Notes: generated by a model not told the origin, from the letters alone. Counted from the stretch's first letter, positions 6,848 through 46,030 are shown. The stretch: 64,000 bases of DNA from an uncultured Subdoligranulum sp. (GCF_963931595.1 NZ_OZ007030.1:548481-612480); one strand, 5' to 3'. Made by a program: numbers and translations.

Positions 6848-7873
6848 TCAGCGCTGGATACGGCCGGAACCGTCGCCGCCGACCAGCTTCTCCACCTCAG
6901 ACACGGTGACCATGTTGTAGTCGCCCTCGATGGAGTGCTTCAGGGCAGAAGCAGCCACGGCGAACTCCACGGCGTCCTGGGTGCTCTTGCCGGACAGCAG
7001 CGCGTAGATCAGGCCGCCGCCGAAGCTGTCACCGCCGCCCACGCGGTCGATGATGTGCAGGTCGTACTTCTTGCTGAAGCAGTACTCGTTGGAGGCAACG
7101 TCGTAGAGCATGGCGCTCCAGCCGTTGTCGAAGGCGGAATGGCTCTCACGCAGGGTGATGGCCACCTTCTCGAAGCCGAACTTGTCGGCCAGCTGCTTGG
7201 CAACGCTCTTGTAGCCCTCGCGGTTGATCTCACCGGCGTAGATGTCGGTGGCCTCGGCCTCGATGCCGAAGACATCCTTGGCATCCTCCTCGTTGGAGAT
7301 GCAGACATCCACGTACTGGCACAGATCGGTCATGGCAGCGCGGGCCTGCTCACGGGTCCACAGCTTGCCGCGGTAGTTCAGGTCGCAGCTGATCTTCACG
7401 CCATGGGCCTTGGCAGCCTTGCAGGCTTCGCGGCAGATGTCCACCACGTTGGGGCCCAGGGCCGGGGTGATGCCGGTGAAGTGGAACCAGTCCACGCCCT
7501 CGAAGATGGAATCCCAGTCGAAGTCGGCAGTGGTGGCTTCCTGGATGGCGGAATGGGCACGGTCGTAGATGCAGACGGAACCACGCTGGGAAGCGCCCTT
7601 CTCGTTGTAGTAGATGCCCACACGGTCACCGCCGCGGGTGATCTTGGAGGTATCGACGCCGTAGCGGCGCAGGCTGTTCACAGCGGCCTGGCCGATGGCA
7701 TGGGCGGGCAGCTTGGTGACGTAGATGGCATCGGCGCCATAGTTGGCCAGGGAGACGGCCACGTTGGCCTCACCGCCGCCGAAGGTGAATTCCAGGTGAT
7801 CGGCCTGGACGAAACGCTCGTAGTTGTACGGCTGCAGACGGACCATCAGTTCGCCAAAAGTAACGACTTTCAT
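6848..7873 (-). CDS. kdgK: PfkB-family sugar kinase, 2-keto-3-deoxygluconate kinase
   Basis: FGGGEANVA, FHFTGITPAL, DLNYRGKLW, DRVGGGDSFGGG; downstream of eda. Confidence 0.9.
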   Translation of the reverse strand: MKVVTFGELMVRLQPYNYERFVQADHLEFTFGGGEANVAVSLANYGADAIYVTKLPAHAIGQAAVNSLRRYGVDTSKITRGGDRVGIYYNEKGASQRGSVCIYDRAHSAIQEATTADFDWDSIFEGVDWFHFTGITPALGPNVVDICREACKAAKAHGVKISCDLNYRGKLWTREQARAAMTDLCQYVDVCISNEEDAKDVFGIEAEATDIYAGEINREGYKSVAKQLADKFGFEKVAITLRESHSAFDNGWSAMLYDVASNEYCFSKKYDLHIIDRVGGGDSFGGGLIYALLSGKSTQDAVEFAVAASALKHSIEGDYNMVTVSEVEKLVGGDGSGRIQR

Positions 7874-7921
7874 GAAGAGACTCCTTTTATTTCAGATTGT
7901 ATACAGAACGTGAGAGAAAGC

Positions 7922-8884
7922 TCAGCGCTGAACCAGGTGCAGGGCGAAGCCGGCGATCTCATCCGCAAAGTAGATGGCGGTGGTCTTGCCGTCCTTGACC
8001 TTCTTGCTGTCCATGTCGAACTTGACGCCGCGCTGGCCCAGGTGGAAGACGGCGCGGTCCACGTTGTTGGTCAGGATGGCGATGTGGCCGTGGGTGCCGC
8101 GGCCCGGCTTCTTCATGATCTCGAATTCCTTCTTGCCCACGAAAATGCTGCTGTTGCCCGGCTTGACAGCCATGCTCAGCAGGTTGCCGATGGTCTCGGC
8201 GGTCTTGGCAGCCTCGGCGTCGTCGGCGCAGTTGATGCCGATGTGGCCCAGCTCCAGGCCCAGCATGGTGTCCACGGCCTCACGGCACATGGCGGTGATT
8301 TCATCCCAGGCGCCGGCCTTGATCTTGTCGCTCTTGCACATCCAGGTGCCGCCCACGGCGAAGATGGGATCGTAGGCCAGGTACTCGTTGACGTTCTTGG
8401 CGTTGATGCCGCCGGTGCACATCCACTTGCAGGTCTTCAGGGCGCCGCCGATGTTCTTCAGCATGGCCACGCCGCCGTTGGCCTCGGCAGGGAAGAACTT
8501 GATGGCCTCGCAGCCCAGGTTCATGGCCTGCTGCATCTCACCGGCGCTGCAGGTGCCGGGCATCATCAGGCCGCCCTTGTCGAAGACGTGCTTGGTGACG
8601 TTGGGGTCAAAGCCCGGCGAAACGATGAAAGAAGCGCCGGCCGCCAGCGCACGGTCCGCCTGATCGGTGGTCAGGACGGTGCCGGCACCCAGCAGCATGT
8701 CGGGCAGCTCCTCGTGGATCTTCTTGATGCACTCCTCGGCGCAGGCCGTGCGGAAGGTGACCTCCGCCGCGGGCAGACCGCCGGCGATCAGGGCCTTGCA
8801 CAGGGGCAGGGCCTCGTCCACGCTATTGAAGGCAATGACCGGAATAATGCCGATCTCATACACACGCTGAACAACAGGATTCAT
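7922..8884 (-). CDS. eda: KDPG/KHG aldolase with an extra ~110-aa C-terminal domain
   Basis: AEVTFRT, GAGTVL, FIVSPG, IKFFPAE, TGGIN; 320 aa versus ~210 aa for a canonical Eda. Confidence 0.92.
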   Translation of the reverse strand: MNPVVQRVYEIGIIPVIAFNSVDEALPLCKALIAGGLPAAEVTFRTACAEECIKKIHEELPDMLLGAGTVLTTDQADRALAAGASFIVSPGFDPNVTKHVFDKGGLMMPGTCSAGEMQQAMNLGCEAIKFFPAEANGGVAMLKNIGGALKTCKWMCTGGINAKNVNEYLAYDPIFAVGGTWMCKSDKIKAGAWDEITAMCREAVDTMLGLELGHIGINCADDAEAAKTAETIGNLLSMAVKPGNSSIFVGKKEFEIMKKPGRGTHGHIAILTNNVDRAVFHLGQRGVKFDMDSKKVKDGKTTAIYFADEIAGFALHLVQR

Positions 8885-33999: not shown

Positions 34000-34074
34000 G
34001 GTGCGCCCGCAGGAACTCGAATCCTGGACCCTCTGATTAAAAGTCAGATGCTCTACCAACTGAGCTACGGGCAC
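33999..34074 (-). tRNA. tRNA-Lys (anticodon UUU)
   Basis: 76-nt cloverleaf GTGCCCG..GCTCAGTTGGTAGAGC..TCTGA CTTTTAA TCAGA..TTCGAG..CGGGCGC ACCA. Confidence 0.97.
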
Positions 34075-41498: not shown

Positions 41499-41549
41499 GA
41501 AAAAGGGGAAAACGGGCGAAAAAACAAGGAGTTAGCTTTTGCTAACATC

Positions 41550-41578
41550 TTGCAAAACGCACGGCGACCCTTTATAAT
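41550..41578 (+). promoter_or_regulatory. Sigma-A promoter of the IscU-like/GGGtGRT operon
   Basis: TTGCAA-17-TATAAT. Confidence 0.8.
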
Positions 41579-41624
41579 AAACTTAGCTGTGAAAAGCCTA
41601 ACAATATGCAAAGGAGAGAAAATT

Positions 41625-42329
41625 ATGATCGAATACTCCGCACAGGTCAATAACATGTGCCCGATCACAAAAGGGCCCAAGCACGGTCCCGCGCCCATTC
41701 CCGAAGAGGGCGAATGGGTAAAGGCCTATAAAATTGAGGACATCAGCGGCTATACCCACGGCGTGGGCTGGTGCGCTCCTCAGCAGGGCACCTGCAAGCT
41801 CAGCCTGAACATCAAGAACGGCATCATCGAGGAAGCCCTGGTCGAGACCATCGGCTGCTCCGGCATGACCCACTCCGCCGCCATGGCCGGTGAGATCCTG
41901 CCCGGCAAGACCATTCTGGAAGCGCTGAACACCGACCTGGTGTGCGATGCCATCAACGTGGCCATGCGTGAGCTGTTCCTGCAGATCGTCTACGGCCGCA
42001 GCCAGACCGCTTTCTCCGAGAACGGCCTGCCCATCGGCGCCGGCCTGGATGACCTGGGCAAGGGTCTGCGCAGCATGACCGGCACCATTTTCTCCACCAA
42101 GGCCAAGGGCGTTCGTTACCTCGAACTGACCGAGGGCTACATCCTCCAGACCGCTCTCGACAAGGACAACCAGGTCATCGGCTACAAGTTTGTCCACCTG
42201 GGCAAGATGATGGACGCCATCCGTCACGGCACCGATCCCAAGACCGCCTACGAGAAGAACATCGGTACCTACGGCCGCTTCAGCGCCGAGCAGGGTGCTG
42301 TCAAGTGGATCGACCCGCGTGAAGAATAA
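41625..42329 (+). CDS. IscU/NifU-N-like protein (partner of GGGtGRT)
   Basis: GVGWCAPQQG, ETIGCSGMTHSAAMA and LVCDAI give three IscU-like Cys; ~110-aa C-terminal extension. Confidence 0.82.
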   Translation: MIEYSAQVNNMCPITKGPKHGPAPIPEEGEWVKAYKIEDISGYTHGVGWCAPQQGTCKLSLNIKNGIIEEALVETIGCSGMTHSAAMAGEILPGKTILEALNTDLVCDAINVAMRELFLQIVYGRSQTAFSENGLPIGAGLDDLGKGLRSMTGTIFSTKAKGVRYLELTEGYILQTALDKDNQVIGYKFVHLGKMMDAIRHGTDPKTAYEKNIGTYGRFSAEQGAVKWIDPREE

Positions 42330-42349
42330 GAGAGGGAGGAACAGATACT

Positions 42350-43348
42350 ATGGCTACTTTTGAATCCCAAGAGCGCCGGATGCCCAAAATTAACGAGTGC
42401 CTGAAAGCCAACGGCCTCGAGTCTCTGGACGCCTGCAACGAAATGCTCCTTGCCAAGGGCATCGACTGCGACAAGATCGTTCGCGGCGTTCAGCCCATCT
42501 GCTTTGATAACGCTGTCTGGGCTTACACCCTGGGCACCGCCATCGCTGTCAAGCGCGGCCTGAAGAGCGCCGCCGACTGCGCCGCCGCCATCGGCGAGGG
42601 CCTGGAAGCCTTCACCGTGCCCGGCTCCGTTGCCGAGCAGCGTCATGTCGGCCTGGGCCATGGCAACCTGGGCGCCATGCTGCTGCATGAGGACACCCAT
42701 TGCTTCTGCTTCCTGGCCGGCCACGAGTCCTTCGCTGCCGCCGAGGGCGCCATCGGCATTGCCCGCACCGCCAATAAGGTCCGCAAGGAGCCCCTGCGTG
42801 TTATCCTGAACGGCCTGGGCAAGGACGCTGCCATGATCATCAGCCGTATCAACGGCTTCACCTACGTCAAGACTGATTTCGACTTCAAGACCGGCGAGGT
42901 CAAGGTTGTCGAGACCACTCCGTACTCCGATGGCGAGCGCGCTGCCGTCAAGTGCTACGGCGCCAACGACGTTCTGGAAGGCGTTGCCATCATGAAGATG
43001 GAGGGTGTTGAGGTTTCCATCACCGGTAACTCCACCAACCCCACCCGCTTCCAGCACCTGGTGGCCGGCACCTACAAGAAGTGGGCCATCGAGAACGGCA
43101 AGAAGTACTTCTCCGTCGCTTCCGGCGGCGGCACGGGCCGTACCCTGCATCCCGACAACGTGGCTGCCGGCCCCGCTTCCTACGGTCTGACCGACTCCAT
43201 GGGCCGTATGCACGGCGATGCCCAGTTCGCTGGCTCCTCCTCCGTGCCTGCCCACGTTGAGATGATGGGTCTGATCGGCGCCGGCAACAACCCGATGGTC
43301 GGCATGACCGTCGCCTGCGCGGTTGCCGCTGCTCAGGCCAACGCCTGA
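42350..43348 (+). CDS. GGGtGRT-family protein, unknown function
   Basis: Signature SGGGTGRTLHPDN, AGHESFAAAEGAI, ITGNSTNPTRF. Confidence 0.93.
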   Translation: MATFESQERRMPKINECLKANGLESLDACNEMLLAKGIDCDKIVRGVQPICFDNAVWAYTLGTAIAVKRGLKSAADCAAAIGEGLEAFTVPGSVAEQRHVGLGHGNLGAMLLHEDTHCFCFLAGHESFAAAEGAIGIARTANKVRKEPLRVILNGLGKDAAMIISRINGFTYVKTDFDFKTGEVKVVETTPYSDGERAAVKCYGANDVLEGVAIMKMEGVEVSITGNSTNPTRFQHLVAGTYKKWAIENGKKYFSVASGGGTGRTLHPDNVAAGPASYGLTDSMGRMHGDAQFAGSSSVPAHVEMMGLIGAGNNPMVGMTVACAVAAAQANA

Positions 43349-43375
43349 TCTCCTTTGTAAACTGCATACTGACTG

Positions 43376-43410
43376 GCCGCCGCCCGGCTCTGCGCCGGGC
43401 GGCGGCTTTT
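43376..43410 (+). terminator. Terminator after GGGtGRT
   Basis: 13-bp IR GCCGCCGCCCGGC/GCCGGGCGGCGGC followed by TTTT. Confidence 0.82.
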
Positions 43411-43444
43411 GCTTTTGAAAGATTTGTAAACTCTTGTGCAATAC

Positions 43445-43473
43445 TTGCCCCGGCGGGATGCAGGGTGTATAAT
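43445..43473 (+). promoter_or_regulatory. Sigma-A promoter of the WYL gene
   Basis: TTGCCC-17-TATAAT with TG. Confidence 0.72.
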
Positions 43474-43509
43474 AGGACTGTATATGTGAAAATGCGGGAG
43501 GGGTGTGCC

Positions 43510-44505
43510 ATGCCACGCAAAGAAGGTCAAAAACGCAAACTGCTTGTCCTTTTGGAGATCCTGGCCCGGGAGACGGACGAAAAGCATCCGTTGAGCGTGC
43601 CGCAGCTGGTGGAAAAGCTGCAGGAACACGGCATTGAGGCCGAGCGCAAGAGTGTCTACGGCGATCTGAACACCCTGAACAGCCTGCCCGATGCCCCCTA
43701 CGAGATCGTGCAGCTGCGCGGCCGCGGCGGCGGCTACTATATGACCGATGTGCTGTTTGAGCTGGCCGAACTCAAACTGCTGGTGGATGCCGTCTACGCC
43801 AGCAAGTTCATCACGGCCCGGAAATCCAAGACACTGATCGACAAGCTGGGACAGTTCACCTCGCGCTACCGCCAGGCGGAGCTGGACCGTAAAGTGCTGG
43901 TCAGCGGCCGGATCAAGAGTACCGACGAGAAGATCCTCTACACGGTGGACGCGCTGCACACGGCCATCACGGCGGGGGAGCAGGTCCAGTTCAAATATTG
44001 CGAGTGGAGCATGGAGAAAAATATGGTGCCGCGCCACGACGGCCAGCTCTACCAGGTCAGTCCCTGGGTGCTGGTGTGGGAGAACGGCAACTACTATCTC
44101 ATCGCCTACACCGAGGGCCGCCTCAAGCACTACCGGGTGGACAAGATGCAGAATGTGCATCAGCTGGCCGGCAGCAAGCGGGAAGGTGCCGCCGAGTACG
44201 CCGAGTTTGATGTGAACACCTACATGCAGCAGATGTTCGGCATGTTCAACGGCCCGCTGAAAAAGGTGACGCTGCTGTGTGAAAACCGGTTTGCCGGGGC
44301 GATGATCGACCGCTTCGGCACCGGGCCGATCCTCAATCCCTGCGAGGACGGGGAACACTTTACCATGACGGTGGAAATCCAGGTCAGCCCCCAGTTCTTC
44401 GGCTGGGTGGCGGGCTTTGGCACCGGCGTGGTGGTGGCGGGGCCGCCGGAGGTCCGCGCCGAGATGAAAAAGACGCTGGATCGGCTGCAGGAGCTCTATC
44501 GCTGA
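43510..44505 (+). CDS. HTH-WYL-WCX transcriptional regulator
   Basis: N-terminal wHTH (ERKSVYGDL), VSPWVLVWENGNYYLIAY (WYL), YRVDKM, FFGWVAGFG (WCX). Confidence 0.92.
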   Translation: MPRKEGQKRKLLVLLEILARETDEKHPLSVPQLVEKLQEHGIEAERKSVYGDLNTLNSLPDAPYEIVQLRGRGGGYYMTDVLFELAELKLLVDAVYASKFITARKSKTLIDKLGQFTSRYRQAELDRKVLVSGRIKSTDEKILYTVDALHTAITAGEQVQFKYCEWSMEKNMVPRHDGQLYQVSPWVLVWENGNYYLIAYTEGRLKHYRVDKMQNVHQLAGSKREGAAEYAEFDVNTYMQQMFGMFNGPLKKVTLLCENRFAGAMIDRFGTGPILNPCEDGEHFTMTVEIQVSPQFFGWVAGFGTGVVVAGPPEVRAEMKKTLDRLQELYR

Positions 44506-44534
44506 TTGCAAACCGGGGCAAAATATGGTATGCT
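44506..44534 (+). promoter_or_regulatory. Sigma-A promoter of the glycosylation operon
   Basis: TTGCAA-17-TATGCT with an extended TG, starting one base after the WYL stop. Confidence 0.7.
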
Positions 44535-44617
44535 GATATGATACGCTCCCCGCGTGGCAGCGGCAGGAAGGACCGCCCCGGCGGTCGGCAACCAATCTCG
44601 TAAGGAGGGCACCTCCG

Positions 44618-46030
44618 GTGCTGGAAAAGAACCAACGATACAAAAACATACTCAGCGGCCTGCTGGATGCGGTGCTGCTGTTTGCCGGTTTTCTGCTGGC
44701 CAACTATGTGCGCTTCAATTATGTCCGCTTCTTTGAGCCGGGCGGCGCCGGGCCGGCACTGGATGTAGCCCAGGATCCCCGCAACCTGCTGGCCGGTACG
44801 GTCACCTCACTGGTGCTGGTGCTGGTCTACTGGGTGGCGGGCATCTACAACAATTCCCGGATGCGCGGCCTTTCGGTGCGCTGCACCCGCATAGCCATCA
44901 TCAATGCGGGCGGCATCCTGGGCTTTGTCTTCATCCTTTATCTGATGCACTTGGACGACTACTCCCGTGTGGTGCTGGGCCTGTTCTACTGCTTCTCCAC
45001 CGCTCTGGTGGTCATCAAGCGGCTGATCCGCCGCTGGTATGACCGTGCCCGCCGCCGCAGGGGGCTGGGGCTGCGACATATCCTGCTGGTGGGCGGCGGC
45101 AAGTCGGCGGCTCTCTACCTGCGGGCACTGGAACACAACCCCTACTATGGTTTCACGGTGGACGGGTATCTCTCGCCTTTGGAGGAGCCGGGGCTGGGGG
45201 TGCCCTACTTCGGCGGTTACGACAAGCTGGATGAGTGCCTGGAAAATCCCGGCATTGACGAGGTGGTGGTAGCGCTGGAAGCCGACGAAATCCAGATGCT
45301 GCCCCGCACCTTTGCCGCCTGCGACAAGCACGGCACCCGCATCACCATGGTGCCCTTTTACAGTGATTATCTGCCGGCCCGTCCCACCATCGACGTGCTG
45401 GACGAATGCAAACTCATCAATGTGCGGCAGACCCCCTTTGACAATATCCTCAACGCCGCCGTCAAGCGCGGACTGGACATTGTGGGCAGCCTGATTCTCA
45501 TTGTGCTGACCAGCCCCGTGATGCTGGTCACGGCCATCGGCGTCAAGCTGTCCAGCCCCGGGCCGGTGATTTTCCGGCAGGAGCGGGTAGGGCTGAACAA
45601 GAAGCCCTTCATGATGTACAAGTTCCGCTCCATGCGGGTGAACGCCAAACAGCAGACCGGCTGGTCCACCGACTACGATCCCCGCAAGACGCGGTTCGGC
45701 AGCCTGATCCGCAAGTTCAGCCTGGACGAGCTGCCCCAGTTCTTCAACGTGCTGAAAGGGGATATGTCCCTGGTGGGACCGCGCCCCGAGGTGCCCTTCC
45801 ATGTGGAGCATTTCAAGGAGGAGATCCCCCGGTATCTGGTGCGGCAGCAGGTCCGCCCCGGCTGCACGGGCTGGGCGCAGATCCACGGCCTGCGGGGGGA
45901 CACCGACATTGCCGAGCGCATCCGCTATGATATCTGGTACATCGAGAACTGGACCGTGGCGCTGGATATCAAGATCATCTTCCGCACGGTGTTCGGCGGC
46001 AAGATGATCAACGACGAAAAAATACAGTGA
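44618..46030 (+). CDS. Priming undecaprenyl-phosphate glycosylphosphotransferase (WcaJ/CpsE-like)
   Basis: N-terminal TMs, KRGLDI, FRQERVG, MYKFRSM, LDELPQFFNVLKGDMSLVGPRPE, PGCTGWAQ, YDIWYIENW. Confidence 0.95.
   Translation: MLEKNQRYKNILSGLLDAVLLFAGFLLANYVRFNYVRFFEPGGAGPALDVAQDPRNLLAGTVTSLVLVLVYWVAGIYNNSRMRGLSVRCTRIAIINAGGILGFVFILYLMHLDDYSRVVLGLFYCFSTALVVIKRLIRRWYDRARRRRGLGLRHILLVGGGKSAALYLRALEHNPYYGFTVDGYLSPLEEPGLGVPYFGGYDKLDECLENPGIDEVVVALEADEIQMLPRTFAACDKHGTRITMVPFYSDYLPARPTIDVLDECKLINVRQTPFDNILNAAVKRGLDIVGSLILIVLTSPVMLVTAIGVKLSSPGPVIFRQERVGLNKKPFMMYKFRSMRVNAKQQTGWSTDYDPRKTRFGSLIRKFSLDELPQFFNVLKGDMSLVGPRPEVPFHVEHFKEEIPRYLVRQQVRPGCTGWAQIHGLRGDTDIAERIRYDIWYIENWTVALDIKIIFRTVFGGKMINDEKIQ

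What the first reader, a model, noticed from the sequence alone, without database searches (positions are those of the whole stretch)
41625..43348. IscU-like + GGGtGRT two-gene operon: intact metal-binding Cys, high-expression codon style, unknown function
Has its own strong promoter (TTGCAA-17-TATAAT) and terminator. The first protein keeps three IscU-like Cys (WCAP, IGCS, LVCD) but has Gln where IscU has the Asp after the first Cys, and no iscS/suf genes are adjacent. The GGGtGRT gene visibly uses GCT/GTT/ACT/CGT/AAC/TTC codons like xfp and kdgK, unlike the G/C-ending accessory genes, which suggests high expression (visual impression, not computed). Its Gly-rich GGGTGRT loop suggests phosphate or nucleotide binding. 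Inference: a two-subunit Fe-S enzyme of central anaerobic metabolism rather than a scaffold. I know of no established function.
Basis: partly seen in the sequence, partly recalled or inferred. Interest (0 to 1): 0.62.

Follow-up and report, generated by a model that had tools for sequence, protein, structure and literature searches.

The report
Abundant IscU-like plus GGGtGRT gene pair
This is a real, very highly expressed two-gene operon (an IscU-fold iron-sulfur protein plus a "GGGtGRT" protein with no known structural relative) that is almost unchanged across gut anaerobes and still has no assigned function; it looks like an iron-dependent metabolic enzyme rather than an Fe-S assembly scaffold.

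Summary
Genes A (41625-42329, 234 aa) and B (42350-43348, 332 aa) form one operon with a near-consensus promoter, strong ribosome-binding sites and a -38 kcal/mol terminator.

- **Proteins.** B is a full-length PF14057 GGGtGRT protein. A has an IscU fold with invariant Cys50/78/107 but fails the IscU family thresholds. It lacks the Asp39, His105 and LPPVK features and carries an extra C-terminal half with no known relative.
- **Expression.** Codon statistics put B first and A fourth of 52 window genes. Metatranscriptome depth is 10-100 times that of xfp, and published proteomes agree.
- **Conservation.** The pair is adjacent in 79 of 79 testable genomes, has no other conserved neighbour, and is at least about 65% identical across phyla and in a methanogen.
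- **Structure.** A confident AlphaFold model of B has no significant PDB match.
- **Literature.** Papers up to 2026 call it uncharacterised. They report strong iron-dependent expression and a Bacteroides transposon hit in a screen that also recovered pfkA.
- **New lead.** A divergent clade (about 48% identity) always sits in an operon with phosphoglycerate-mutase-family genes.

Best reading: an abundant heteromeric Fe-S enzyme, possibly acting at the phosphoglycerate/PEP node. This is unproven. The window copy is an ordinary member of a catalogued but functionally unknown family.

The parts
41531..41546 (.). Perfect inverted repeat GTTAGC-TTTT-GCTAAC immediately upstream of the -35 box. It is a candidate operator or a weak bidirectional hairpin.
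   Evidence: Read directly from the sequence. The terminator scan lists it as a minus-strand hairpin. The arms GTTAG/CTAAC are kept with a variable centre in the Gemmiger loci L004, L005 and L013, and only there.
41550..41578 (+). Sigma-70-type promoter TTGCAA-17 nt-TATAAT.
   Evidence: 10 of 12 matches. Most of the 74 homologous upstream regions carry an equally near-consensus TTGAAA/TTGCAA-N17-TATAAT.
41587..41604 (+). Rex/CRP-type palindrome CTGTGAAAAGCCTAACAA just downstream of the -10 box, a position typical of a repressor site.
   Evidence: It is the only match with 2 or fewer mismatches to TTGTKAANNNNTTMACAA in the 64 kb window, against 0.15 expected. In L002 and L006 the same site reads CTGTGAAAAGCTTCACAA, 13 of 14. 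Of 74 upstream regions, 21 have at least 12 of 14 matches, against 0.86 expected from GC-matched control windows. The box is absent from the divergent clade, Vibrio, Persicobacter and the archaeal locus.
41610..41618 (+). Ribosome-binding site AAAGGAGAG for gene A.
   Evidence: Read from the sequence. AAAGGAG is conserved upstream of nearly all homologues.
41625..42329 (+). Gene A, 234 aa: an IscU-fold Fe-S protein with an extra C-terminal half.
41730..41990 (+). IscU-like domain of A (residues about 36-122). The Cys codons are Cys50 at 41772-41774, Cys57 at 41793-41795, Cys78 at 41856-41858 and Cys107 at 41943-41945.
   Evidence: Cys50, Cys78 and Cys107 are invariant. Cys57 is near-invariant, with Ala in Vibrio. 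The top 36 Foldseek hits are all IscU/ISCU/SufU (probability 1.0, target TM about 0.5, E of 1.1e-3 or weaker), but the query model is low-confidence.
41991..42326 (+). C-terminal half of A (residues about 123-234). It has invariant YGRxQxAFS and YGR motifs and no known relative.
   Evidence: No Pfam or NCBIfam hit. A profile search against PDB found nothing. The AlphaFold model is poor for residues 122-170 and moderate for 171-229.
42330..42349 (+). 20-nt spacer carrying the ribosome-binding site (GAGAGGGAGG) for gene B.
   Evidence: Read from the sequence. In other genomes the A-B gap is 17-95 nt, and the genes overlap by 8-11 nt in the divergent clade.
42350..43348 (+). Gene B, 332 aa: a GGGtGRT protein (PF14057).
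   Evidence: 619 bits against a cut-off of 27, matched end to end. AlphaFold model with pLDDT 84.2 and pTM 0.86. No PDB relative by sequence or by fold.
42350..42685 (+). N-terminal all-helical domain of B (residues 1-112, seven helices).
   Evidence: DSSP assignment on the AlphaFold model; pLDDT is mostly above 90.
42686..43345 (+). Alpha/beta domain of B (residues 113-332). Its invariant loops follow the strands: AGHESFAAAEG, GLGK, TGNST, SGGGTGRTxHPD and QFAGSSSVPxH.
   Evidence: Strand and helix order. Invariant columns.
43124..43144 (+). Codons of the name-giving GGGTGRT motif (residues 259-265).
   Evidence: Read from the sequence. The motif is invariant in all clades. It lies in the only long low-confidence stretch of the model, residues 261-286.
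43375..43417 (+). Intrinsic terminator: a 14-bp stem with 13 G-C pairs, a 5-nt loop and a T-run.
   Evidence: Folding energy -38.4 kcal/mol, z = -5.3. Metatranscriptome depth falls to about 0 right after it.

Best explanation
A and B are the two subunits of one very abundant, iron-dependent Fe-S protein that works as a metabolic enzyme, not as a cluster-assembly scaffold.

**Proposed mechanism.**
- Subunit A uses an IscU fold to hold a resident, non-transferred cluster on Cys50, Cys78 and Cys107. The fourth position is filled variably: by Cys57 or Cys12, by a His from B, or by substrate.
- Subunit B is a new alpha/beta protein. Its invariant Gly/Ser/Thr/Arg/Lys/His loops lie at the C-terminal edge of its parallel sheet, the usual ligand site of Rossmann-like folds. 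These loops bind an anionic, probably phosphorylated, small molecule.
- The disordered GGGTGRT...HPD...RMH...SSSVPAH segment closes over the cluster of A to complete the active site.
- The most likely substrate class is a phosphorylated three-carbon acid at the phosphoglycerate/PEP node. The cluster would act as a Lewis acid (aconitase or serine-dehydratase logic) or as a one-electron centre.
- The enzyme is made in large amounts when iron is plentiful and is shut down when iron is scarce.

**Shown:** the operon structure, the conservation, the expression level, the IscU fold with its Cys triad, the loss of scaffold-specific motifs, the novelty of B's fold, and the phosphoglycerate-mutase linkage in the divergent clade.

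**Inferred:** cluster binding, heteromer formation, the location of the active site and the identity of the substrate.
For: **One functional unit.**
- A lies immediately upstream of B in 79 of 79 testable loci out of 80 species genomes.
- The same arrangement is found in an archaeal MAG, Vibrio, Persicobacter and other clades.
- The coding regions overlap in the divergent clade.
- Pairwise identities of A and B correlate, r = 0.70.
- An RNA contig spans the junction.
- No other gene is conserved beside them.

**High flux or high abundance.**
- Near-consensus promoter and ribosome-binding sites.
- Most extreme codon bias in the window.
- Metatranscriptome depth of 82-1134 at 99% identity or better, against 1-15 for xfp and 0 for the flanking genes.
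- Both proteins are detected in chicken-gut and rumen metaproteomes and as spots on C. pasteurianum 2-D gels, and the chicken-gut study calls GGGtGRT highly expressed in vivo.

**Iron protein.** BT0173-74 falls 11-13-fold on iron depletion. The C. pasteurianum proteins change with iron supply.

**Resident rather than transferable cluster.** The Cys triad is invariant, but the Asp39 equivalent is missing, there is no His before the last Cys, there is no LPPVK segment, and A scores below every IscU/NifU/SufU threshold. No desulfurase gene is nearby. Cys57 is replaced by Ala in Vibrio, as expected if the fourth coordination site is not structural.

**Ligand site on B.** All invariant motifs follow beta-strands of the alpha/beta domain.

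**Metabolic link.**
- Every divergent-clade locus that is long enough (five lineages) places the pair between an ApgM and a dPGM-like histidine phosphatase. The ApgM passes the NCBIfam equivalog cut-off, 517 bits against 489.
- One lineage adds GpmI.
- None of the 80 mainstream loci has these genes.
- BT0173-4::Tn mutants were recovered with pfkA mutants in a screen for loss of glucose-dependent repression of Cur.
Against: - No biochemical datum exists for cluster binding, complex formation or activity.
- The AlphaFold model of A is poor (pLDDT 53), and no complex could be modelled.
- B has no invariant Cys and resembles no known enzyme. Its weak Foldseek hits are generic Rossmann-like domains (best E = 0.023, TM 0.26).
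- In the mainstream clade, which includes this window, no metabolic gene is linked to the pair.
- The phosphoglycerate-mutase linkage comes from a paralogue-like clade only 48% identical to the window protein. That clade also carries an unknown two-helix membrane protein, so its function could differ.
- The Bacteroides transposon phenotype is modest (2-fold), and growth on glucose is normal.
- IscU itself is also highly conserved, so conservation alone does not separate an enzyme from a scaffold.
Confidence: 0.4

Rival explanations
1. The pair is an Fe-S cluster assembly, carrier or storage module. A would be a specialised IscU-type scaffold, and B an accessory partner that delivers iron or sulfur or stabilises and stores preformed clusters. 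It would work in anaerobes alongside SUF or the minimal ISC systems.
For: - A has the IscU fold and a Cys triad at the IscU cluster site.
- Sources annotate A as 'NifU-like protein involved in Fe-S cluster formation'.
- The pair is abundant and induced by iron, as a storage protein would be.
- Extreme conservation is also a property of IscU.
Against: - A scores below all IscU/NifU/SufU thresholds.
- The Asp39, His105 and LPPVK features needed for cluster lability and HscA docking are absent.
- No cysteine desulfurase or chaperone gene is linked in any of about 100 loci.
- Transposon mutants grow normally.
- Scaffold systems such as SUF are normally induced, not repressed, by iron limitation (general knowledge).
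- A scaffold has no evident reason to sit among phosphoglycerate mutases.
Confidence: 0.2
2. The pair is a redox or stress protein: an abundant electron-transfer, oxygen/ROS/NO-detoxifying or Fe-S repair protein of anaerobes, comparable in role to rubrerythrin. Its expression would be tied to the NADH/NAD+ state.
For: - It is co-listed with rubrerythrins among the commonly expressed proteins of gut anaerobes.
- A Rex/CRP-type palindrome lies on the promoter here and in many Oscillospirales homologues.
- It is an iron-dependent protein.
- A rubredoxin gene lies next to the pair in the archaeal MAG.
Against: - The Rex-like box is confined to one lineage.
- No flavin, haem or di-iron motif is recognisable.
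- No peroxidase or reductase partner is linked.
- The phosphoglycerate-mutase linkage is not explained.
Confidence: 0.12
3. The pair is a sulfur-insertion enzyme. The cluster on A, held by three Cys, would carry a terminal sulfide as in TtuA/NcsA-type thiolases. B would activate an acceptor by phosphorylation or adenylation through its Gly-rich loops.
For: - The Cys triad is invariant and the fourth ligand is dispensable.
- B has Gly-rich, P-loop-like motifs.
- In the rumen metaproteome it changes together with cysteine synthase and O-acetylhomoserine thiol-lyase.
Against: - B has no PP-loop or Walker A motif in canonical form (read from the sequence).
- B has no ATP-grasp or adenylation fold hit.
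- The abundance is far higher than expected for a cofactor or tRNA thiolation enzyme.
Confidence: 0.08
4. B is a cofactor-binding protein, holding a corrinoid or tetrapyrrole, and is paired with an Fe-S partner in the manner of corrinoid/Fe-S proteins.
For: The helical-bundle-plus-Rossmann-like architecture and a loop His after the first strand recall B12-binding and SCHIC domains. Those domains appear among the weak Foldseek hits (4jgi, 4heh, 4hh3).
Against: Those hits have probability 0.28-0.41, TM 0.2-0.3 and rmsd above 12 angstroms. The DxHxxG...SxL...GG motif is not present (read from the sequence).
Confidence: 0.04

Closest known systems
IscU / NifU N-terminal domain Fe-S scaffold (PF01592, TIGR01999)
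   Same: The fold of residues about 45-122 matches: the Foldseek top hits are all IscU/ISCU. The central GC(S/G) cysteine is shared, as is a cysteine at the start of the last helix. The 'AP..G' loop and the 'KL' strand are recognisable.
   Different: - A scores below the family thresholds.
- It has no Asp39, no His105 and no LPPVK loop.
- The position of the first ligand Cys is shifted or ambiguous, and there are extra Cys at positions 12 and 57.
- It carries an additional C-terminal half of about 110 residues.
- It is never next to a cysteine desulfurase and always next to a GGGtGRT gene.
- It is repressed, not induced, by iron limitation.
SufU zinc-dependent sulfurtransferase (TIGR01994)
   Same: The general fold is the same. 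There are weak sequence and Foldseek hits.
   Different: The score is 17 bits against a cut-off of 92.5. No sufS or sufBCD gene is linked.
PF14057 GGGtGRT family, including the B. thetaiotaomicron pair BT0173-BT0174
   Same: The window's B is a full-length, typical member. The NifU-like partner, the iron regulation and the high expression have been described for other members.
   Different: Nothing differs in kind. This is simply the copy from a chicken-gut Gemmiger, 95-97% identical to the Gemmiger species in GTDB. The family itself has no function, no solved structure and no mechanism.
Two-subunit [4Fe-4S] hydro-lyases, such as L-serine dehydratase alpha/beta and class I fumarase or tartrate dehydratase
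   Same: This is a functional analogy only. Both are two-gene, oxygen-sensitive, iron-dependent, highly expressed enzymes of anaerobes, with a cluster held by three Cys and a substrate-facing fourth iron.
   Different: No sequence or fold relationship was detected. Here the cluster-binding module is an IscU fold.

Membership tests
IscU/NifU_N scaffold (PF01592, TIGR01999, TIGR03419) | Score at or above the curated family cut-off | tested here: not met
   Pfam gives 19.1 bits against a cut-off of 22, covering residues 58-103 only. TIGR03419 gives 24.5 against 187.9 and TIGR01999 gives 19.9 against 192.4.
IscU/NifU_N scaffold (PF01592, TIGR01999, TIGR03419) | IscU alpha+beta fold | tested here: met
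   The top 36 Foldseek hits are all IscU/ISCU/SufU, with probability 1.0, target TM about 0.5 and rmsd about 3 angstroms over about 100 columns. Caveats: the query model has pLDDT 53, and the E-values are only 1e-3 to 1e-2.
IscU/NifU_N scaffold (PF01592, TIGR01999, TIGR03419) | Three cluster-ligand Cys at the canonical positions (Cys37, Cys63, Cys106 in E. coli numbering) | tested here: inconclusive
   Cys78 aligns firmly with Cys63. Cys107 sits at the start of the last helix, as Cys106 does, but only after the LPPVK-His segment is deleted. The first ligand is ambiguous: Cys50 by HMMER, or Gln54 flanked by Cys50 and Cys57 by MAFFT. All three Cys are invariant in the family.
IscU/NifU_N scaffold (PF01592, TIGR01999, TIGR03419) | Labile-ligand Asp (Asp39), His105 and the LPPVK chaperone-docking motif | tested here: not met
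   The loop reads CAPQQGxC with no Asp. Val precedes the last Cys. There is no LPPVK.
IscU/NifU_N scaffold (PF01592, TIGR01999, TIGR03419) | Genomic linkage to a cysteine desulfurase or the ISC/SUF/NIF machinery | tested here: not met
   None within about 10 kb in the window. No recurrent neighbour in 80 loci. None in the other loci examined.
IscU/NifU_N scaffold (PF01592, TIGR01999, TIGR03419) | Assembles Fe-S clusters and transfers them to acceptor proteins | not testable with these tools
   This needs anaerobic biochemistry.
GGGtGRT family (PF14057) | Full-length match above the gathering score | tested here: met
   619 bits against a cut-off of 27. Residues 4-329 match profile positions 1-326 of 327.
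GGGtGRT family (PF14057) | Conserved GGGTGRT motif | tested here: met
   Residues 259-265, encoded at 43124-43144. The motif is invariant in 41 diverse members.
GGGtGRT family (PF14057) | Partner NifU-like gene immediately upstream (a feature of the pair as described for BT0173-74, not a Pfam criterion) | tested here: met
   Found in 79 of 79 testable loci and in all further clades examined.
Fe-S hydro-lyases (serine dehydratase, fumarase A, aconitase type) | Sequence or fold homology to a known hydro-lyase family | tested here: not met
   No Pfam or NCBIfam hit. No Foldseek hit.
Fe-S hydro-lyases (serine dehydratase, fumarase A, aconitase type) | [4Fe-4S] cluster on three Cys with a substrate-binding fourth iron | not testable with these tools
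   There is only indirect support: three invariant Cys, and the candidate fourth ligand Cys57 is replaced by Ala in Vibrio.
Rex regulon | Rex operator (TTGTKAA-N4-TTMACAA) in the promoter | tested here: inconclusive
   A 12 of 14 match at 41587-41604 is the only one in the window. The box is enriched in Oscillospirales homologues, 21 of 74 against 0.86 expected. It is absent in other clades. CRP/FNR-type sites look the same. Whether the genome has a rex gene was not tested.

The most novel reading that the evidence does not exclude
The IscU-like/GGGtGRT pair is an unrecognised Fe-S-dependent enzyme of lower glycolysis or gluconeogenesis. It would act on phosphoglycerate, PEP or a close relative, for example as an iron-dependent dehydratase or isomerase working beside phosphoglycerate mutase. 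It would be present at very high levels in most gut and rumen anaerobes, with a paralogous copy in some spore-forming Firmicutes packaged with ApgM, GpmI and dPGM-like genes.
Probability: 0.15. Interest if true: 0.85.

Novelty: new member of a known kind. Interest (0 to 1): 0.6.

Why it matters
The pair is widely and highly expressed in gut and rumen anaerobes, including Bacteroides, Prevotella, Blautia, Megasphaera and Gemmiger. It is at least about 65-70% identical across bacterial phyla and in a gut methanogen. The available data show it responding strongly to iron. It has neither a function nor a structural relative.

If it is a central-carbon enzyme, metabolic models of gut anaerobes lack a high-flux, iron-dependent step. 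If it is an Fe-S store or carrier, it would change how iron handling in anaerobes is understood.

The phosphoglycerate-mutase linkage found here, together with the Bacteroides screen that also recovered pfkA, gives a concrete set of substrates to test. The window copy itself is ordinary. The value lies in the family.

Tried and rejected
- **PDB relatives of B.** Sequence and profile searches found nothing (best E values 0.22-1.5). A profile of the C-terminal half of A also found nothing.
- **Foldseek with the confident B model.** No hit at E of 1e-3 or better. The UDP-GlcNAc 2-epimerase, PFK, SIS and carboxyspermidine dehydrogenase hits are generic Rossmann-like matches (TM 0.2-0.3). I rejected them as evidence of function.
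- **Foldseek hits to B12-binding and SCHIC domains.** Rejected: probability 0.41 or lower and rmsd above 12 angstroms.
- **Natural A-B fusions.** None were found. All long 'GGGtGRT' proteins are internal duplications or chimeras from assemblies.
- **Conserved neighbours in the mainstream clade.** None. The largest neighbour cluster occurs in 13 of 80 loci and reflects lineage synteny only.
- **Defence-system models (PADLOC).** Nothing for A, B or the divergent operon.
- **Riboswitch or other known RNA in the leader.** None, only a tRNA at 34002-34074.
- **Rex operator as a general feature.** Rejected. It is enriched only in Oscillospirales.
- **Plasmid or phage carriage.** Only chromosome-like 'plasmid' records and six unannotated faecal 'Bacteriophage sp.' contigs. 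These are not evidence of mobility.
- **Canonical motifs in B.** Reading the sequence, I considered Walker A, ASKHA phosphate-1/2, a PEP-utiliser phosphohistidine site and the B12 DxHxxG motif. None fits in spacing or residues.
- **Structure prediction.** A complex could not be modelled, because only two jobs were available and no concatenated input is accepted.
- **Literature.** Searches for GGGtGRT, PF14057, BT0173/4, 'Rex regulon' with NifU, NifU-like domain names, 'IscU-like' with Bacteroides, and NifU with phosphoglycerate mutase found no functional assignment.
Full report
**What is there.** The window (63% G+C) comes from a chicken-gut Gemmiger. The closest genomes are Candidatus Gemmiger faecavium (97% protein identity for gene B) and G. 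formicilis (95%), and the DNA is found in chicken-gut sequencing runs.

At the stated coordinates there are two co-oriented ORFs. Gene A runs from 41625 to 42329 (234 aa). Its ATG follows AAAGGAGAG, and homologues are 230-234 aa. Gene B runs from 42350 to 43348 (332 aa).

The promoter is TTGCAA-17-TATAAT at 41550-41578. The terminator at 43375-43407 has a 14-bp stem and folds at -38.4 kcal/mol, z = -5.3.

The flanking genes are unrelated. Upstream lie xfp, a tRNA, aspS, a DUF4349 gene, hisS, an MFS transporter and a Wzy-like membrane protein. Downstream lie a WYL/WCX regulator with its own promoter and a polysaccharide-synthesis cluster. No iscS or suf gene is nearby.

**The proteins.** B matches PF14057 (GGGtGRT) end to end, 619 bits against a cut-off of 27. 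A gives only sub-threshold matches to NifU_N, IscU and SufU over residues about 50-105.

Alignments were made across every clade I could reach: Oscillospirales, Collinsella, a Methanobacteriaceae MAG, Vibrio, Persicobacter and a divergent clade. In A they show:
- Cys50, Cys78 and Cys107 invariant.
- His45, Lys58, Glu74/Thr75 and Asp108 also invariant.
- Cys57 near-invariant (Ala in Vibrio), and an N-terminal Cys12 near-invariant.

Cys78 corresponds firmly to IscU Cys63. Cys107 begins the last helix as IscU Cys106 does, but the preceding LPPVK-His segment is missing. The first ligand is ambiguous. There is no counterpart of the labile ligand Asp39.

The AlphaFold model of A is poor (pLDDT 53). 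Even so, its top 36 Foldseek hits are all IscU/ISCU/SufU. The C-terminal half of A has no detectable relative.

B has no invariant cysteine. Its invariant residues are His104, the run His125-Glu-Ser-Phe-Ala-Ala-Ala-Glu132, Arg145, Lys158, Arg166, Glu210, Thr-Gly-Asn-Ser-Thr229, Ser258-GGGTGRT-x-His267-Pro-Asp, Asp282, Arg286, His288, Gln292-FAGSSSVP-x-His302 and Gly-Asn-Asn-Pro.

The AlphaFold model of B is confident (pLDDT 84, pTM 0.86). It shows a seven-helix N-terminal domain followed by an alpha/beta domain. Each invariant motif follows a beta-strand, which is the classical ligand-binding edge of such folds. The GGGTGRT-to-His288 stretch (residues 261-286) is the one long low-confidence region.

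B has no PDB relative by sequence or by fold (best E = 0.023, TM 0.26).

**Conservation and distribution.** The genome scan found at least 583 species genomes with a close relative. In 79 of the 80 loci kept, A lies 17-95 nt upstream of B on the same strand. The 80th locus is cut off at that point.

A search of 1.84 billion 50%-identity clusters returned 1,756 hits, but nearly all are fragments or chimeras. Only a handful of full-length representatives exist. The whole family therefore stays above roughly 50% identity.

B is 84% identical between Gemmiger and Collinsella, 71% in a Methanobacteriaceae MAG, and 64-69% in Vibrio and Persicobacter. That level across phyla and domains implies very strong constraint, horizontal spread, or both.

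No other gene is conserved beside the pair. No A-B fusion was found. Pairwise identities of A and B correlate, r = 0.70.

**Expression.**
- B has the highest share of T-ending four-fold codons in the window, and A has the highest CGT share. Both have Nc of about 30.
- On the first RSCU axis, B ranks first and A fourth of 52 genes. They group with the PfkB kinase, xfp, KDPG aldolase and aspS.
- Contigs from a chicken-gut metatranscriptome cover the pair at a depth of 82-1134 at 99% identity or better. The figures for comparison are 1-15 for xfp and 0 for the immediate neighbours. The same pattern appears at 93% identity.
- Coverage stops at the terminator, and one RNA contig spans the A-B junction.
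- Caveat: contig depth is a crude measure, and a gene this conserved can collect reads from other strains.

Published data agree. [quoted passage not shown] They appear in rumen metaproteomes (PMC7035244) and as spots on 2-D gels of C. pasteurianum (PMC5395762).

**Functional clues from the literature.** BT0173-BT0174 fall 11-13-fold under iron depletion in B. thetaiotaomicron (PMC10434189). The C. pasteurianum proteins change with iron supply.

A 2026 preprint isolated BT0173-4 transposon mutants in a screen for loss of glucose-dependent silencing of the regulator Cur. The other hits were pfkA and an M16 peptidase. The effect was 2-fold, and growth on glucose was normal.

A 2025 paper states that the function of the GGGtGRT protein remains unclear (PMC12078515). 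Seven literature searches found no assignment.

**A new lead: the divergent clade.** A clade about 48% identical in B and about 50% in A keeps all the Cys and all the B motifs. It is always found in a fixed operon: apgM, then A', B', a 315-332-aa protein with two membrane helices and no known family, and a His_Phos_1 (dPGM-like) gene (loci L081-L085, L095, L099-L101).

- The ApgM passes the NCBIfam equivalog cut-off for cofactor-independent phosphoglycerate mutase, 517 bits against 489.
- One lineage (L093/L094) adds the bacterial GpmI.
- In these loci A' and B' overlap by 8-11 nt.
- One locus lies on the chromosome of a spore former, next to fur, ypeB, sleB and spoIIR.
- tblastn finds these partner genes in every divergent-clade locus that is long enough, and in none of the 80 mainstream loci or the window.

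This is the only gene-context signal in the family, and it points to phosphoglycerate chemistry. It applies to the window copy only by extrapolation from a paralogue-like clade.

**Regulation.** The sequence CTGTGAAAAGCCTAACAA (41587-41604) lies just after the -10 box. It is the only match in the window with 2 or fewer mismatches to the Rex consensus. In sister species it reads CTGTGAAAAGCTTCACAA.

Such boxes occur in 21 of 74 homologous upstream regions, against 0.86 expected from GC-matched control windows. They are absent in other clades, and CRP/FNR-type sites look the same. I treat this as a lineage-specific lead, not a family trait.

A second inverted repeat (41531-41546) upstream of the -35 box is conserved only within Gemmiger.

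**Interpretation.** The evidence best fits an obligate two-subunit, iron-dependent Fe-S protein made at the level of a glycolytic enzyme. The IscU fold would have been recruited to hold a resident cluster, because the motifs that make IscU a transfer scaffold are gone. B would provide a binding site for an anionic ligand.

Three observations favour an enzyme of central carbon metabolism at or near the phosphoglycerate/PEP node: the phosphoglycerate-mutase linkage, the screen that also recovered pfkA, and the iron-sparing type of regulation. A Lewis-acid Fe-S dehydratase or isomerase is the most economical chemistry.

None of this is shown biochemically, so I give it 0.4. The rivals are a scaffold, carrier or store (0.2), a redox or stress protein (0.12), a sulfur-insertion enzyme (0.08) and a cofactor-binding protein (0.04).

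**Novelty and verdict.** The window copy is a typical member of a catalogued pair: Pfam PF14057 plus a 'NifU-like' partner, known as BT0173-74. That makes it a new member of a known kind. The kind itself is an abundant family whose function is still unknown, and B has no structural relative in PDB.

Interest is moderate to high (0.6) because of the family, not because of anything peculiar to this locus.

Noticed in passing
L081:5997-10606; also L085:2572-8580, L093:391-6859, L095:301-5405, L099:6006-10548: A divergent IscU-like/GGGtGRT pair sits in a conserved five-gene operon: ApgM, A', B', an uncharacterised 315-332-aa protein with two membrane helices, and a dPGM-like histidine phosphatase. 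L093/L094 add GpmI. In L099 the operon lies beside fur, ypeB, sleB and spoIIR in a spore former, which may point to a link with 3-phosphoglycerate use in spores.
   Followed up: partly
L085:4392-5306: A 304-aa protein with N-terminal membrane helices and a weak PLD-like match is inserted between apgM and A' in one divergent-clade locus. There is no PADLOC hit beyond a marginal PtuB match.
   Followed up: partly
window 41531-41546: A perfect inverted repeat, GTTAGC-TTTT-GCTAAC, abuts the -35 box. The arms are conserved with a variable centre in three other Gemmiger loci only. It may be a genus-specific operator.
   Followed up: partly
window 34002-34074 (-): A tRNA gene lies between xfp and aspS. 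This bin shows a local peak of RNA contig depth in all four runs laid.
   Followed up: no
window 6848-8884 (-): A PfkB-family kinase (kdgK-like) and a KDPG/KHG aldolase lie side by side. They share the same strong codon bias as xfp and the A-B pair, which suggests a highly expressed route for 2-keto-3-deoxygluconate.
   Followed up: partly
window 43445-46030: A WYL/WCX-domain regulator (43465-44505) has its own promoter-like site (43445-43473). It directly precedes a polysaccharide cluster that starts with a Bac_transf/CoA_binding_3 sugar transferase (44618-46030).
   Followed up: no
proteins P0121, P0122, P0213, P0232, P0241, P0408 (GGGtGRT); P0031, P0037 (gene A family): Many over-long database entries for both families contain internal tandem duplications of the same protein. 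These are probably assembly artefacts, caused by collapsing many near-identical strain variants of a very highly covered gene.
   Followed up: partly
L088:4048-5751 (Methanobacteriaceae MAG); L021/L022 (Collinsella): The pair is 71% identical (B) in an archaeal gut MAG, where it lies next to a rubredoxin gene. It is 84% identical in the actinobacterium Collinsella. That is far above typical cross-phylum orthologue identity and suggests horizontal spread among gut organisms.
   Followed up: no
phage collection hits H11-H16 (for example MT835590.1, 4635-5588): Six unannotated 'Bacteriophage sp.' contigs from human faeces encode GGGtGRT proteins 49-78% identical to the divergent-clade query. They may be misclassified bacterial contigs or carried host genes.
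   Followed up: no
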